Origin: the human T2T-CHM13v2.0 reference genome, Homo sapiens
DNA length: 64,000 nt
Strand: one strand, 5' to 3'
NCBI RefSeq assembly: GCF_009914755.1
Contig: NC_060931.1
The notes below the pieces were generated by a model. It was not told where the DNA came from. It saw only the letters and a list, made by a program, of their open reading frames with translations, and did no database searches. Position 1 is the first letter of the stretch, and every line of letters begins with the position of its first letter. Below, piece after piece: positions 17,393-24,930 of this stretch. A program made the translations under genes and the position numbers.

Positions 17393-17675
17393 AGCAGTCT
17401 GCCTGAGCTGCAGGGCCTGCCGGAGGTGCACAAACAGTGTGAGGGGAACCTCCCCTATGCTAGGAAACTCCCAGCCCAAAGGAGGGCATCCACAGTTTCC
17501 AGTGTTACTCAGGTAGAAGTTAATGAAAATGCTTACAAAAGTGGCTCTGGCATGCAGATGGCAGAGGACAGCAAGAGGGTAAGACACACCAGACACTGCC
17601 CGGCATCCAGAGAGTGAAGGACAAAGCCCAGTCTGGTGGCAAATGGAAAGTTTAGTGTAGAAAAGGCTCTGTGTG
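17393..17675 (+). pseudogene. NET1: NET1 (ARHGEF8) mRNA fragment: C-terminal coding region and stop
   Basis: PELQGLPEVHKQCEGNLPYARKLPAQRRASTVSSVTQVEVNENAYKSGSGMQMAEDSK/KTHQTLPGIQRVKDKAQSGGKWK/LV* matches the recalled NET1 C-terminus (...RRASTVSSVTQVEVDENAY...GGKRKETLV) with two frameshifts; TAG at 17658-17660. Confidence 0.85.
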
Positions 17676-18846
17676 GGACTTGCTGGCAAGATGGCCAAAT
17701 AGGAACAGCTCTAGTCTGCAGCTCCCAGTGAGATCAACACAGAAAGCGGGTGATTTCTGCATTTCCAAGTGAGGTACCCAGTTCATCTCAATGGGACTGG
17801 TTGGACAGTGGGTACAGCCCACGGAGGGTGAGACGAAGCAGGGTGAGGTGTCGCCTCACCTTGGAAGTGCAAGGGGTCGGGTGATTTCCCTTTCCTAGCC
17901 AAGGGAAGCTTTGAGAGACTGGATCAGGAGGAATAGTGCAATCCGGCCCAGATACTGCACTTTTCCCATGGTCTTCACAACTGGCAGACCAGGAGATTGC
18001 CTCCATAGCCTGTCTCAGCAGGTCCCACTCCCACGGAGCCCAGCAAGCTAAGGTCCACTGGCTTGAAATTCTCGCTGCTAGCACAGCAGTCTGAGGTCGA
18101 CCTGGGACACTCGAGCTTGGTGCGGGGAGGGCGTTCGCCATTGCTGAGGCTTAAGTAGGTGGTTTTACCCTCACAGTGTAAACAAAGCCCTGGGAAGTTC
18201 AAACCGGGCGGAGCCCACTGCAGCTCAACAAGGCGGCTGAAGGCACACTGCCTGTCTAGATTTCCTCCTCTCTGGGCAGGGGATCTCTGAAAAAAAGGCA
18301 GCAGCCCCAGTCTGGGACTTATAGATAAAACCCTTAGCTCCCTGGGACAGAGCACCTGGGGGAAGGGGCGGCTGTGGGCGCAGCTTCAGCAGACTTAAAC
18401 GTCCCTGCCTGACAGTTCTTAAGAGAGCAGTGGATCTCCCAGCACAGTGTTCAAGGTCTGATAAGGGACAGGCTGTCTTCTCAAGTGGGTCCCTGATCCC
18501 CGTGTATCCTGCCTGGGAGACACCTCCCAGTAGGGGCCAACAGACACATCATACAAAAGAGTTCTCGCTGACATCTGGTGGGCACCCCTCTTGGATGAAG
18601 CTTCCAGAGGAAGGAACAGGCAGCAATCTTTGCTATTCTGCAGCCTCCACTGGTGATACCTGGGAAAACAGGGTCTGGAGTGGACCTCTAGCAAACTCCA
18701 GCAGACCTGCAGAAGAGGGGCCTGTTAGAAGGAAAACTAACAAAACAGAAAAGAATAGTAGCAACATCAACAAAAAGGACGTCTACTCCGAGACCCCATC
18801 TGAAGGTCACCAACATCAAAGGCCAAAGGTAGATAAATCCACGAAG

Positions 18847-19869
18847 ATGGGGAGAAACCAGCGCAAAAAGGCTGAAAACTCCAAAAACCAGAACGCCTCT
18901 TCTCCTCCAAAGGATCACAACTCCTTGTCAGCAAGGGAACAAAACTGGATGGAGAATGAGTTTGACGAATTGACAGAAGTAGGCTTCCGAAGGTGGGTAA
19001 TAACAAACTCCTCTGAGCTAAAGGAGCATGTTCTAACCCAATCCAAGGAAGCTAAGAACCTTGAGAAAAGGTTAGACAAATTGCTAACTAGAATATCCAG
19101 TTTAGAGAAGAACATAAATGACCTGATGGAGCTGAAAAACACAGCACGAGAACTTCTTGAAGCATACACAAGTATCAATAGACGAATTGATCAAGTGGAA
19201 GAAAAGATACCAGAGATTGAAGATCAACTCAATGAAATAAAGCAAGAAAACAAGATTAGAGAAAAAAGAGTGAAAAGAAAGGAACAAAGCCTCCAAGAAA
19301 TATGGGACTATGTGAAAAGGCCAAATATACATTTGATTGCTGTTCCTGAAAGTGACGGGGAGAATGGAACCAAGTTGGAAAACACTCTTCAGGATATTAT
19401 CCAGGAGAACCTCCCCAACCTAGCAAGGCAGGCCAACATTCAAATTCAGGAAATACAGAGAACACCACAAAGATATTCCTCAAGAAGAGCAACCCCAAGA
19501 CATATAATCGTCAGATTCTCCAAGGTTGAAATGAAGGAAAAAATGTTAAGATCAGTCAGAGAGAAAGGTCAGGTTACCCACAAAGGGAAGCCCATCAGAC
19601 TAACAGCAGATCTCTTGGCAGAAACCCTACAAGCCAGAAGAGAGTGGGGGCCAATATTCAACATTCTTAAAAGAATTTTCAACCCAGAATTTCCTATCCA
19701 GCCAAACTAAGCTTCATAAGTGAAGGAGAAATAAAATCCTTTACAGACAAGAAAATGCTGAGAGATTTTGTCACCACCAGGCCTGCCTTACAAGAGCTCC
19801 TGAAGGAAGCACTAAACATGGAAAGGAATGACCGGTACCAGCCATGGCAAAAAACATGCCAAATTGTAA
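18847..19869 (+). pseudogene. L1 ORF1p, frameshifted near 19670
   Basis: MGRNQRKK...EIWDYVKRPN...TPRHIIVRF...ARREW then frame loss. Confidence 0.9.
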
Positions 19870-19931
19870 AGACCATTGACACCATGAAGAAACTGCATCT
19901 ACTAACGGGCAAAATAACCAGCTAGCGTCAT

Positions 19932-22900: not shown

Positions 22901-23737
22901 TAAAACACCAAAAGCAATGGCAACAAAAGCCAAAATAGTCAAATGGGATCTAATTAAAATAAAAAGCTTCTGCACAGCAAAAGAAACTATCATCAGAGTG
23001 AACAGGCAACCTACAGAATGGGAGAAAATTGTTGCAATCTATCCATCTGACAAAGGGCTAATACCCAGAATCTACAAAGAACTTAAACAAATTTACAAGA
23101 AAAAAACAACCCCATCAAAAAGTAGGCAAAGAATATGAACAGACATTTCTCAAAAGATGACATTTATGCAGCTAACAAACATATGAGCAAATGCTCATCA
23201 TCACTTGTCATTAGAGAAATGCAAATTAAAACCACAATGAGATACCATCTCACACCAGTTAGAATGGCGATCATTAAAAAGTGAGGAAACAACAGATGCT
23301 GGAGAGAATGTGGAGAAATAGGAATGCTTTTACACTGTTGGTGAGAGTGTAAATTAGTTCAACCATTGTGGAAGACAGTGTGGTGATTCCTCAAGGATCT
23401 AGAACCAGAAATACCATTTGACCCAGCAATCCCATTACTGGGTCTATACCCAAAGGATTATAAATCATTCTACTATAAAGACACATGCACATGTATGTAT
23501 ATTGCAGCACTGTTCACAATAGCAAAGACTTGGAACCAACCCAAATGCCCATCAGTGATAGACTGGATAAAGAAAATGTGGCACATATACACCATGGAAT
23601 ACTATGCAGCCATAAACAAGGATGAGTTCCTGTTCTTTGCAGGGACATGGCTGAAGCTGGAAACCATCATTCTCAGCAAACTAACACAAGAACAGAAAAC
23701 TGAACACTGCATGTTCTCATTCCTAAGTGGGAGTTGA
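19932..23737 (+). pseudogene. L1 ORF2p (endonuclease/RT), disrupted
   Basis: [23 protein letters not shown] motifs spread over several broken frames. Confidence 0.9.
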
Positions 23738-23972
23738 ACAATGAAAACACATGGACACAGGGAGGGGAACATCACACACTGGGGCCTGTCAGAGGGTGGG
23801 GGTAGGGGAGGGATAGCATTAGGAGAAATACCTAATGTAGATGACAGGTTGATGGGTGGAGCAAACTACCATGGCACATGTATACCTACGTAATAAATCT
23901 GCACATTCTGCACATGTACCCCAGAACTTAAAGTATAATAAAAAAAAAAAAAGAAAGAAAAGGCTCTGTGTG

Positions 23973-24930
23973 TTAACTGGTGGAAAGACTGTTTATAAAT
24001 GTATACAGTTTTGTTTTCTTGTAATAAAAGCCTCATAAGTTTACTTTATACCAGTTGTAACATTCTCATTTTTTTGGTTGTTCTTTTTTCTTTTTTTAAT
24101 GGCAGCTAAAGATATACAGATTACTGTTAAATTGCAGTCCTTTTTAAAAAAATATTTTCTTGAATTATTTAGAACATGCAAGCCTGGTATTTTTAATCAA
24201 ATAAAATATTTATAAAATAGGTGTTCTCTTATTCTGGATTCATCCTGGTTTTCTAATACCAATTGTAATATTTACAATATTCACCAAAACTTAGAATTTT
24301 GCAAATACTGGAATTCTACCAGTGCTTCTTTAATAAGCCTTGCATGTATAATTTGAAATTTTAACACTGGCACTCAAAATCTACATGAAATGTATGTTTA
24401 AAGTATTTCAAAATTTACATTGAAACATAACTTCATTAGAAAATAAACTATAAGCCTAAGTAGGTTTTTAATTTTATCAACTGGAATGCTATTAGTCGGT
24501 TTTTCACCATACATTCCTCATTTTACATTCATTTAACCTGTCAATTAATTTATTTTATTGTAGTTTTTAGCATTTGCTTTTTTTTAATGCTTTTTCAAAT
24601 TAGCAAGTCTTTATTTTTCTTTCTGATTAAAAATGTGTGTGTGTATATATATGTGTGTATATATGTGTATATATGTGTGTGTGTGCATATATATATATAC
24701 ACACACACATATATTTAATCACACCAACTTTACCAAGTAAAACCAAGCCACACTGATTTTAAGCCAATTAAGAAAACTGCCATTTTTAAAGTGTAGCATT
24801 TCAGGGTAAAGACCCATGAAATGACTTAGTGTATTCTAGACTACCAAAAGAAAACCACTTCAAAAATTTTGTTAAAAGTTTTAGTGTTGTCTGAAAAGCA
24901 AGAAGGAAAATGGTAGTAAAAGAAGAAGAG
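23973..24930 (+). pseudogene. NET1: Probable NET1 3'UTR continuation
   Basis: AT-rich non-retroviral sequence contiguous with the NET1 stop once the L1 and one TSD are removed; 3' boundary uncertain; no poly(A). Confidence 0.7.

What the first reader, a model, noticed from the sequence alone, without database searches (positions are those of the whole stretch)
17393..24930. NET1 C-terminal CDS and 3'UTR fragment fused to a gag stub
About 88 codons match the recalled NET1 tail ending in the PDZ-binding ETLV, here damaged by two small deletions. The piece starts directly after the Pro-rich gag region and runs into ~1 kb of AT-rich 3'UTR-like sequence. It lacks the DH/PH catalytic domains, so it is not an active GEF. 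An ancestral Gag-NET1 tail fusion is possible but the frame cannot be settled given the decay. The 3' end has no poly(A).
Basis: partly seen in the sequence, partly recalled or inferred. Interest (0 to 1): 0.8.

Follow-up and report, generated by a model that had tools for sequence, protein, structure and literature searches.

The report
Fossil retrovirus carrying NET1, PLEKHA4 fragments
An ancient, defective retrovirus fossil on human chromosome 7 picked up pieces of two host gene messages (the tail of NET1 and the start of PLEKHA4) and then copied itself to at least one other chromosome, which is a rare record of gene capture by a human endogenous retrovirus.

Summary
Window 17379/17394-17660 is the last ~90 codons of NET1, and 17661-25002 is 1.06 kb of its 3'UTR. 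A full-length L1 with a 17-bp target duplication splits the piece.

The piece is not an ordinary processed pseudogene. It lies inside one provirus (LTRs 15981-16477 and 29277-29748, tRNA-Ile primer site). It has no poly(A) tail and no target duplication of its own. It starts in mid exon after a gag stub and ends in mid 3'UTR by crossing back into about 20 nt of gag at an 11-nt microhomology.

Directly after it come exon 1 and exon 2 of PLEKHA4 with the intron removed. These are joined at the exact end of exon 2 to the integrase zinc-finger region.

A second provirus on chr1 has all the same junctions, different flanks and its own target duplication. A third, on chr19, has the PLEKHA4 piece but no NET1.

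Best reading: a helper-dependent recombinant of the HERV-I/HERVIP kind that took up two host mRNAs by template switching and spread in the germ line roughly 25-40 million years ago. In both copies gag and NET1 are out of frame, and nothing looks functional today.

I found no report of it in print. The closest published case is ERV-Hako.

The parts
15981..16477 (+). 5' LTR (TG...CA); 5-bp flank TGGTT at 15976-15980
   Evidence: Direct repeat with 29277-29748. Ends read. K2P to the 3' LTR is 0.129.
16482..16499 (+). Primer binding site, complementary to the 3' end of tRNA-Ile(AAT); 15 of 18 positions
   Evidence: Searches give the sequence. The undecayed 15-mer found in other copies lies on the 3' end of a tRNA-Ile(AAT) gene in L060.
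16500..17050 (+). Leader, with three 52-bp tandem repeats at 16695-16850
   Evidence: family D20. Homologous to the leaders of family members.
17051..17378 (+). gag stub: matrix plus the start of the Pro-rich region. The start codon position now reads ACG. The last 30 nt (17349-17378) are shared only with the chr1 copy.
   Evidence: Aligned to gag of full-length relatives up to 17348. The 30-nt piece was checked.
17379..17660 (+). NET1 last-exon coding tail (about 90 codons plus stop). Certain homology starts at 17394; 17379-17393 is an ambiguous crossover zone.
17661..17675 (+). First 15 nt of the NET1 3'UTR (inside the L1 target duplication)
17676..23955 (+). Later full-length L1 insertion with a poly(A) end. 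The 17-bp target duplication lies at 17659-17675 and 23956-23972. Not part of the original chimera.
23973..25002 (+). NET1 3'UTR, continued. It ends at parent position L006 6405, which is not a poly(A) site.
24992..25021 (+). NET1-to-gag crossover (11-nt microhomology at 24992-25002), followed by about 20 nt of the gag capsid C-terminal region
   Evidence: the same words occur in gag of L054 and L055. Coordinates.
25015..25474 (+). PLEKHA4 exon 1 (GA-rich 5'UTR), first part, with a chr7-specific G/A microsatellite expansion at about 25140-25440
25475..26212 (+). chr7-specific inserted copy of an env segment (a duplicate of 27845-28331), itself carrying an Alu at 25491-25757
   Evidence: Absent from the chr1 copy. 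K2P to its source is 0.096.
26213..26515 (+). PLEKHA4 exon 1, second part. In the parent gene this point is followed by GTAAGT.
26516..26605 (+). PLEKHA4 exon 2 (start codon and first 27 codons). The 457-bp intron is absent. The piece ends at the exact 3' end of the exon.
26606..27560 (+). 3' part of pol (integrase, from inside the zinc-finger region), decayed
   Evidence: Pfam rve, E 5.9e-7, 30.1 bits, below the 32.6 cut-off. Homology to family members.
27561..29260 (+). env, decayed. It has a 204-nt deletion at 27904 relative to the chr1 and chr3 relatives.
29277..29748 (+). 3' LTR, preceded by a polypurine tract; 5-bp flank TGTTT at 29749-29753

Best explanation
The NET1 piece is cargo inside a defective recombinant endogenous retrovirus of the class I type with a tRNA-Ile primer site (the HERV-I/HERVIP kind).

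Its original layout was: LTR, leader, about 110 codons of gag, NET1 last-exon fragment (about 90 codons plus 1.06 kb of 3'UTR), about 20 nt of gag, PLEKHA4 exon 1 plus exon 2 (spliced), the end of integrase, env, LTR. The host pieces replace about 4.1 kb of gag-pro-pol. The element therefore could only spread with proteins from a helper virus. It kept the LTRs, the primer site, the leader and the polypurine tract.

Shown by the data:
- The host pieces came from RNA and sit between viral sequences.
- Every junction is shared by an independent integration on chr1.

Inferred:
- The joins were made by reverse transcriptase switching templates at short microhomologies between co-packaged viral and host RNAs.
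- PLEKHA4 was taken up first and NET1 afterwards.
- Both spread about 25-40 million years ago.

The element has no GEF domain, and gag and NET1 are out of frame in both copies. Today it is a fossil. A later L1, an Alu, an env-fragment insertion and a microsatellite expansion are chr7-specific additions.
For: 1. One provirus. The LTR pair is at 15981-16477 and 29277-29748. A 5-bp flank matches at 4 of 5 positions. A primer site and a polypurine tract are present.

2. Second copy. chr1:186.98 Mb aligns from LTR to LTR, including the NET1 and PLEKHA4 pieces. Outside the LTRs only Alus match. The gag-to-NET1 junction is identical. The NET1 / gag remnant / PLEKHA4 junctions are identical. The exon 2 / integrase junction is identical. 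The 5-bp flank pairs differ between loci: chr7 TGGTT/TGTTT, chr1 ATCAG/ATGAG.

3. RNA origin. PLEKHA4 exon 1 and exon 2 are joined without the 457-bp intron. In the parent gene the two points carry GTAAGT and ...CAG. The gene is named by 1upq, PEPP1/PLEKHA4, E 5e-8.

4. Not L1-made. NET1 ends at parent position 6405. The nearest AATAAA or ATTAAA words are at 6042 and 6783. There is no A-run. The piece continues into a gag word that relatives carry in their capsid region, across an 11-nt microhomology. By contrast, a true multi-exon NET1 retrocopy on chr18 runs to about 6787.

5. Viral DNA replaced. Family homology stops at 17348 (= L054 2108) and resumes at 26602 (= L054 6218).

6. Order of events. 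The chr19:9.84 Mb provirus has gag through its zinc knuckle, then PLEKHA4 exon 1-2 with the same exon 2 / integrase join, and no NET1.

7. Timing. The three NET1 sequences form a star. K2P values are 0.107, 0.104 and 0.109. Private changes number 63, 60 and 55. This is like the LTR-LTR values of 0.129 and 0.107.
Against: - NET1 lies within one exon, so its own RNA origin is not shown directly.
- The chr19 copy joins gag to PLEKHA4 at a different point (parent rc ~4612) than chr7 and chr1 do (rc ~4526). A single PLEKHA4 capture therefore needs two later deletions; otherwise the capture was recurrent.
- The raw PLEKHA4 distance places chr1 closer to the parent gene than to chr19 (0.112 against 0.157). 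This mostly disappears once the chr19 excess of G-to-A changes is set aside (24 of 42 private changes; 18, 19 and 20 without them).
- The env-fragment duplicate in chr7 is less diverged than the LTRs at non-CpG sites (0.061 against 0.12). It may be a later DNA-level event rather than a viral one.
- The target-duplication-like pairs are 4 of 5 matches, not perfect, for chr7, chr1 and chr19.
- No other primate genome could be searched, so the ages rest on divergence alone.
- Only two NET1-bearing copies were found.
Confidence: 0.85

Rival explanations
1. An ordinary 5'-truncated, L1-made processed pseudogene of NET1 landed in an existing provirus. The chr1 copy arose by duplication of genomic DNA.
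For: RefSeq lists the locus simply as a NET1 pseudogene (hub note). The fragment lies in the 3'-terminal exon, as 5'-truncated retrocopies do.
Against: - There is no poly(A) tail and no flanking target duplication.
- The piece ends about 400 nt short of the site that the chr18 retrocopy reaches.
- Viral DNA on the two sides of the piece is not contiguous: about 1.3 kb of gag is missing between them.
- The chr1 copy is bounded by its own LTRs, with different 5-bp flanks and no flank homology.
Confidence: 0.03
2. The chimera was assembled at the DNA level in a germ-line provirus. Host cDNA or DNA pieces were patched into breaks by end joining. The rearranged provirus was then transcribed and remobilised in trans to chr1.
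For: Microhomologies of 5-11 nt at the joins are also typical of microhomology-mediated end joining. The env-fragment insertion in chr7 may be a post-integration event of this kind.
Against: - The PLEKHA4 piece is spliced and starts at or near the 5' end of exon 1, about 70 nt after a GC box. This fits copying an RNA to its end.
- Three separate host/virus exchanges in one element fit repeated template switching in one or a few rounds of reverse transcription better than repeated break repair.
- In either case the element spread as a retrovirus-like RNA.
Confidence: 0.08
3. The exon 2 / integrase join was made by splicing, not by template switching. A provirus sat in PLEKHA4 intron 2. Transcripts from the PLEKHA4 promoter spliced exon 2 onto a cryptic acceptor in integrase. 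That chimeric RNA recombined, perhaps more than once, with replicating relatives. This is a variant of the best explanation, not an alternative to capture.
For: - The join is at the exact last base of exon 2.
- The viral side is preceded by AG in 6 of 7 ordinary family members examined, and by AA in the seventh.
- The chr19 and chr7/chr1 lineages share this join but differ at the upstream gag/PLEKHA4 join. This is what recurrent use of one spliced RNA would give.
Against: - A 6-7 nt microhomology (CCYCAAG) spans the join. It would also guide a template switch.
- The viral sequence before the AG has no pyrimidine tract.
- No relic of this ERV family is seen in today's PLEKHA4 intron 2; only Alus match.
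- By my own rough estimate, not a computed value, a join falling on an exon end by chance has a probability of about 5%.
Confidence: 0.3

Closest known systems
ERV-Hako subtypes carrying SUSD6 and SPHKAP 3'UTR pieces in the human genome (Frith 2025, PMC11905727; abstract and passages read)
   Same: Human ERV relics that hold part of a host gene between their LTRs. The same insert is present in several copies on different chromosomes. The cargo is mostly 3'UTR.
   Different: Hako is a class II ERV with a tRNA-Trp primer site. The element here is class I with a tRNA-Ile site. It carries two host genes in tandem, includes coding sequence (the NET1 tail and the first 27 PLEKHA4 codons) and contains a spliced exon-exon junction. 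Neither NET1 nor PLEKHA4 is mentioned in that paper (0 occurrences).
Crocodilian ERVs that captured KIT-ligand and nectin3 mRNAs (Chong et al. 2014, PMC4299795; abstract and passages read)
   Same: Capture of host mRNA by an ERV lineage followed by replication of the recombinant. That paper calls such capture relatively uncommon and says it usually costs viral coding domains.
   Different: Those captures kept open host reading frames, apparently under purifying selection. Here only fragments were taken, and no frame is intact.
Classical transducing (acute transforming) retroviruses such as the v-src and v-sis carriers (established knowledge; review PMC13297096, passages read)
   Same: A gag stub, then host sequence, then the 3' viral part. 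Replication genes are lost, a helper is needed, and the joins are at microhomologies.
   Different: Those viruses carry the active part of the proto-oncogene, usually in frame with gag. Here the DH-PH catalytic part of NET1 is absent and the frames are offset. This element was fixed in the germ line.
Mosaic HERVs (Harlequin and HERVIP/HERVE recombinants; Vargiu et al. 2016, PMC4724089; passages read)
   Same: Recombinant proviruses with the same mosaic at several sites with different flanks. They are explained there by co-packaging and polymerase jumps. HERVIP is reported as A-rich, with LTR divergence of 10-19%.
   Different: Those mosaics combine retroviral sequences only. This one contains host mRNA.
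Classical NET1 processed pseudogene at chr18:51.637 Mb (found here)
   Same: Derived from NET1 mRNA.
   Different: It joins several exons, is older (67-79% identity), runs to the distal poly(A) signal, and has no ERV around it.

Membership tests
Retrovirally transduced host sequence (defective recombinant provirus) | The host segment lies between the two LTRs of one provirus that has its own target duplication | tested here: met
   The LTR pair is seen. The 5-bp flanks are TGGTT/TGTTT, a 4 of 5 match.
Retrovirally transduced host sequence (defective recombinant provirus) | The host segment replaces viral coding sequence | tested here: met
   About 4.1 kb of gag-pro-pol (L054 2108 to 6218) is absent. 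A 20-nt gag remnant lies between the two host pieces.
Retrovirally transduced host sequence (defective recombinant provirus) | The host segment derives from processed RNA (introns removed) | tested here: met
   Met for PLEKHA4: exon 1 and exon 2 are joined and the 457-bp intron is absent. Not decidable for NET1, which lies within one exon.
Retrovirally transduced host sequence (defective recombinant provirus) | The same chimeric junctions occur at two or more independent integration sites | tested here: met
   chr7 and chr1 share all four junctions. Their flanks are unrelated and their 5-bp flank pairs differ.
Retrovirally transduced host sequence (defective recombinant provirus) | Cis elements for helper-dependent replication are retained (LTRs, primer site, leader, polypurine tract) | tested here: met
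   All are present by sequence. Packaging activity of the leader cannot be tested here.
Retrovirally transduced host sequence (defective recombinant provirus) | Gag-host fusion in one reading frame (usual for v-onc proteins, not obligatory) | tested here: not met
   In both chr7 and chr1 the gag frame enters NET1 one base out of the NET1 frame. The founder's frame was not reconstructed.
L1-mediated processed pseudogene | The 3' end lies at the mRNA poly(A) site and carries an A-tail | tested here: not met
   The piece ends at parent position 6405. The signals are at 6042 and 6783. There is no A-run, and the piece continues into gag.
L1-mediated processed pseudogene | A target-site duplication flanks the retrocopy | tested here: not met
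   No repeat brackets 17379...25002. The only duplication in the span belongs to the later L1.
HERV-I / HERVIP group (class I, gamma-like) | Primer binding site complementary to tRNA-Ile | tested here: met
   The chr7 site matches 15 of 18 positions. The degenerate motif gave 64 genomic matches against 0 for the control. The undecayed 15-mer sits on the 3' end of a tRNA-Ile(AAT) gene.
HERV-I / HERVIP group (class I, gamma-like) | Gamma-like gene content: matrix, PPPY, one CCHC knuckle in gag; integrase; env with a transmembrane part | tested here: inconclusive
   The gag features were read in relatives. Integrase rve scored E 5.9e-7 but below Pfam's cut-off, and the env pieces gave no Pfam match.
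HERV-I / HERVIP group (class I, gamma-like) | Best match to the Repbase/Dfam HERVI or HERVIP10F interior and to LTR10-type LTRs | not testable with these tools
   No repeat library is on hand. The family names are taken from Vargiu 2016 and from recall.
Acute transforming retrovirus (v-onc carrier) | Carries the catalytic or transforming part of the proto-oncogene | tested here: not met
   The fragment begins just after the residues that end the 4xh9 DH-PH chain. Only the tail is present.

The most novel reading that the evidence does not exclude
The founder was a working transducing virus whose Gag was fused in frame to the NET1 tail with its PDZ-binding end. This would have given the particle or the infected cell a new interaction. 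The PLEKHA4 piece would record the capture intermediate itself: a host-promoter transcript spliced from exon 2 into a provirus sitting in PLEKHA4 intron 2. On this reading the locus would be a germ-line fossil of a proto-oncogene-derived transduction caught in two steps.
Probability: 0.1. Interest if true: 0.8.

Novelty: new member of a known kind. Interest (0 to 1): 0.6.

Why it matters
Host-gene capture is the textbook origin of viral oncogenes, but it is rarely seen in endogenous retroviruses. The only report for human ERV relics that my searches turned up is ERV-Hako (2025).

This element adds several things:
- It is a class I example.
- It carries two host mRNAs in tandem.
- It includes coding sequence of a proto-oncogene.
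- It contains a spliced exon junction that proves the RNA route.
- It keeps a short gag remnant that orders the two captures.
- It has independent copies that show the recombinant spread.

It also corrects the reading of an annotated 'NET1 pseudogene': that locus was not made by L1. The case is also a warning that GA-rich DNA after a retrocopy need not be a decayed tail.

Tried and rejected
- **Decayed poly(A) tail.** I first took the GA-rich DNA after 25002 for a decayed tail. It is PLEKHA4 exon 1.
- **Non-templated filler.** I took the 12-14 nt between NET1 and PLEKHA4 for filler. It is gag.
- **A lost 11-bp stretch in NET1.** From memory I expected NET1 to have lost 11 bp near the 5' junction. 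The tool-fetched parent shows no such deletion.
- **Hits at 8p23, 4p16, 3q and 11.** I suspected the matches to the GA-rich piece there were more ERV copies. They match PLEKHA4 exon 1 better (84-92%) than they match the ERV copies (about 76%), and they have no ERV parts around them in the 4 of 8 such loci I looked at.
- **Independent PLEKHA4 captures.** I considered this from the distances. The G-to-A excess in the chr19 copy explains most of the asymmetry, so the question stays open.
- **Pfam.** On 12 translated pieces it gave only a sub-threshold integrase hit.
- **Literature.** Searches for NET1 + endogenous retrovirus + pseudogene (3 papers, none relevant by title or abstract), PLEKHA4 + NET1 + retrovirus (0), PLEKHA4 + endogenous retrovirus (3, none relevant by title or abstract), NET1P1 (0) and HERVIP10-related terms found no description of this element.
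- **Other primate genomes and repeat libraries.** Neither is available, so orthology, the exact family name and the annotated PLEKHA4 start site and NET1 poly(A) sites could not be checked.

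
Full report
**1. The observation**

The stretch 17394-17675 aligns to the NET1 locus on chr10 at 89.2% (E 3e-105). After a 6.28-kb interruption, 23956-25002 aligns to the next 1,066 bases of the same exon at 82.8%. A whole-genome search with 17379-17665 gave three places only: the window itself, chr10, and a place on chr1 (3 of 3 candidates scored).

The parent exon is NET1. Its first 39 residues are identical to the end of the DH-PH chain of PDB 4xh9, 'Neuroepithelial cell-transforming gene 1 protein', E 2.3e-20.

The captured part begins just after those residues, about 125-135 nt into the last exon. 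That exon starts near L006 4935. The captured part therefore holds only the unstructured tail, about 90 codons, with the stop at 17658-17660.

chr7 alone has a 1-bp and a 4-bp deletion in this tail. The interruption is a full-length L1 (17676-23955) with a poly(A) end and a perfect 17-bp target duplication. It is a later event.

**2. The setting is one provirus**

Direct repeats at 15981-16477 and 29277-29748 are LTRs. They run TG...CA. A polypurine tract lies before the 3' copy and a primer site lies after the 5' copy. The 5-bp flanks are TGGTT and TGTTT.

The primer site matches 15 of 18 positions of a word whose undecayed form lies on the 3' end of a tRNA-Ile(AAT) gene. The degenerate motif gave 64 genomic matches against 0 for the control. 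This is therefore an ERV of the tRNA-Ile kind.

Whole-genome searches with its leader/gag and its integrase/env found dozens of relatives at 73-81% identity (85 and 47 rows, lower bounds, 40 candidates scored in each). Full-length relatives show gag with a matrix domain, a Pro-rich region with PPPY, and a CCHC knuckle.

Against these relatives, chr7 keeps gag only up to 17348 and resumes inside integrase at 26602-26606. About 4.1 kb of gag-pro-pol is missing.

**3. What fills the gap**

- **NET1.** It comes after the gag stub (17051-17378, of which the last 30 nt are shared only with the chr1 copy).
- **End of the NET1 piece.** NET1 ends at 25002, parent position 6405, where the parent continues with unrelated sequence. 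AATAAA or ATTAAA words lie only at 6042, 6783 and 7379. An independent, older, multi-exon NET1 retrocopy on chr18 runs to about 6787. The distal poly(A) site is therefore about 400 nt beyond the captured end.
- **A gag remnant.** The 20 nt that follow are not filler. Relatives carry the same words in the capsid C-terminal part of gag. The last 11 nt of the NET1 piece are identical to the gag sequence just before them.
- **PLEKHA4 exon 1.** Next comes GA-rich DNA that matches a chr19 gene on its sense strand. Homology starts about 70 nt after a GC box and ends where the gene has GTAAGT.
- **PLEKHA4 exon 2.** An 89-nt exon 2 follows, with the start codon and 27 codons. The 457-bp intron is absent. 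Exon 3 of that gene matches PDB 1upq, PEPP1/PLEKHA4, E 5e-8.
- **Join to integrase.** The captured piece ends on the last base of exon 2 and joins the integrase zinc-finger region. In ordinary family members the viral sequence at that point reads ...CC(T/C)CAA(G/A) before the join (7 of 7 members with a hit; 12 loci were examined and one gave no hit). This overlaps the exon's own ...CCCCAAG.

**4. The same chimera elsewhere**

- **chr1:186.98 Mb.** It aligns with chr7 from LTR to LTR through gag stub, NET1, gag remnant, PLEKHA4 and integrase-env. Outside the LTRs only Alus match. All four junctions are the same. Its flanks are ATCAG/ATGAG. It has its own, different L1 fragment in the NET1 3'UTR. 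It lacks the chr7 env-fragment insertion (25475-26212), the microsatellite expansion and the two small NET1 deletions.
- **chr19:9.84 Mb.** This is a more distant relative (LTR K2P 0.191). Its gag runs through the zinc knuckle and joins PLEKHA4 exon 1 at a different point. It then has the same exon 1 / exon 2 / integrase structure. It has no NET1: apart from Alus, the only match is one 40-nt low-complexity stretch.
- **chr3:148.11 Mb.** This is a close sibling with the same LTR type. About 35 codons of gag are joined directly to the integrase core at a 9-nt microhomology. It has no host DNA.
- The four proviruses have four different 5-bp flank pairs. The chr3 pair is perfect and the others match at 4 of 5 positions.

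**5. How it most likely arose**

Shown:
- The PLEKHA4 piece came from spliced RNA.
- The NET1 piece has neither a tail nor a target duplication.
- Both host pieces sit between viral sequences.
- The finished chimera integrated at least twice.

Inferred:
- Each join was made by reverse transcriptase switching templates between co-packaged RNAs. Every join shows 5-11 nt of shared sequence.
- The PLEKHA4 piece starts at or near the 5' end of its exon 1. That is where a polymerase copying the RNA would run out of template.
- PLEKHA4 was taken up first, and NET1 later replaced about 1.3 kb of gag. Two facts point this way: the gag remnant between the two host pieces, and the NET1-less chr19 copy.

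Two points stay open:
- The chr19 and chr7/chr1 lineages differ at the gag/PLEKHA4 join. Either two later deletions followed a single capture, or one chimeric RNA was used more than once.
- The join at the exact end of exon 2 could be a splice from a host transcript into a provirus in intron 2, or a template switch at the 7-nt microhomology. No relic of the family is seen in that intron today.

**6. Age**

| Comparison | K2P |
|---|---|
| LTR pair, chr7 | 0.129 |
| LTR pair, chr1 | 0.107 |
| LTR pair, chr3 | 0.104 |
| LTR pair, chr19 | 0.191 |
| NET1 parent vs chr7 | 0.107 |
| NET1 parent vs chr1 | 0.104 |
| NET1 piece, chr7 vs chr1 | 0.109 |

Private changes in the three NET1 sequences number 63, 60 and 55, which makes a star. 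Capture and both integrations were therefore close in time.

Vargiu et al. 2016 use a very rough scale of 2.5 million years per percent of LTR divergence (passage read). On that scale the NET1-bearing copies are about 25-30 million years old and the chr19 copy about 40. That paper gives 10-19% divergence and 30-40 million years for the HERVIP/ADP supergroup, and notes A-richness that may be due to APOBEC. Here the chr19 copy shows 24 G-to-A changes among 42 private changes in the PLEKHA4 piece.

The chr7 env-fragment duplicate has K2P 0.096, or 0.061 at non-CpG sites. It may be younger than the integration.

**7. Function**

None is apparent today. The DH-PH part of NET1 is absent. In both copies the gag frame enters NET1 one base out of frame. 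All viral frames are broken. I did not reconstruct the founder's frame; that step is referred.

**8. Comparison with what is in print**

I found no paper that links NET1 or PLEKHA4 with an ERV. About 1.7 million PubMed Central articles and most subscription-journal papers are not searched.

Host-gene capture in human ERV relics was described for ERV-Hako, a class II ERV with SUSD6 and SPHKAP 3'UTR pieces (Frith 2025; abstract and passages read). In crocodilians it was described for KIT-ligand and nectin3 (Chong 2014; passages read).

This element is therefore a new member of a known kind. It is class I, carries two host mRNAs, includes coding sequence, and has a spliced junction. RefSeq lists the locus as a NET1 pseudogene (hub note). 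Whether Dfam or Repbase already hold a subfamily consensus with the PLEKHA4-derived stretch could not be checked.

Noticed in passing
window 17676-23955: A full-length L1 (6.28 kb) with a poly(A) end and a perfect 17-bp target duplication, inserted 15 nt after the NET1 stop codon. The hub note places a RefSeq 'enhancer' (17920-18672) in its 5' region.
   Followed up: partly
L027+L028 (chr18:51,637,100-51,639,760): An older, classical processed pseudogene of NET1. At least three exons are joined without introns. Identity to the parent is 67-79%. An Alu is inserted, and the copy runs to the distal ATTAAA of the parent. No ERV surrounds it.
   Followed up: partly
L011-L018 and other places listed (8p23, 4p16, 3q21-22, 3p12, 11p15, 11q13): About 20 copies of a 240-bp stretch of PLEKHA4 exon 1. 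In the 4 loci compared they are 84-92% identical to the chr19 gene. They sit in regions known for segmental duplication and are not linked to the ERV.
   Followed up: partly
L024-L026 local 5429-18499 (chr19:9.835-9.848 Mb): A relative provirus with the PLEKHA4 piece only. It carries a nested 6.4-kb element with 513-bp LTRs (92.8% alike) at local 7654-14111, two Alus, and a marked G-to-A excess.
   Followed up: partly
L056+L057 (chr3:148.105-148.113 Mb, minus strand): A sibling provirus with the same LTR type. About 35 codons of gag are joined directly to the integrase core at a 9-nt microhomology. It has a perfect 5-bp target duplication, ATTAT.
   Followed up: partly
window 16695-16850 and 16930-17045: The leader holds three 52-bp tandem repeats and a two-copy repeat of about 60 bp. 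Per the hub note, RefSeq 'enhancer' features (15633-16832, 16125-16625, 16626-17126) overlap the 5' LTR and this leader.
   Followed up: no
window 25140-25440: A G/A-rich microsatellite (units of about 10 and 21 nt) has expanded inside the captured PLEKHA4 5'UTR exon. It is absent from the chr1 copy and from the parent gene.
   Followed up: partly
window 24624-24724: A (TG)n/(TA)n/(CA)n stretch in the NET1 3'UTR forms a near-perfect inverted repeat with itself. The chr1 copy has an L1 fragment inserted at the same place.
   Followed up: no
window 29770-30430: Two Alus in tandem lie just after the 3' LTR. They are bracketed by a repeated word (CTGGATGACAATTTTTA), so they entered as insertions into flanking DNA.
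   Followed up: no
window 27904: chr7 lacks 204 nt of env that the chr1 and chr3 relatives have. The inserted env-fragment copy (25475-26212) lacks it too, so the deletion came before the duplication.
   Followed up: partly
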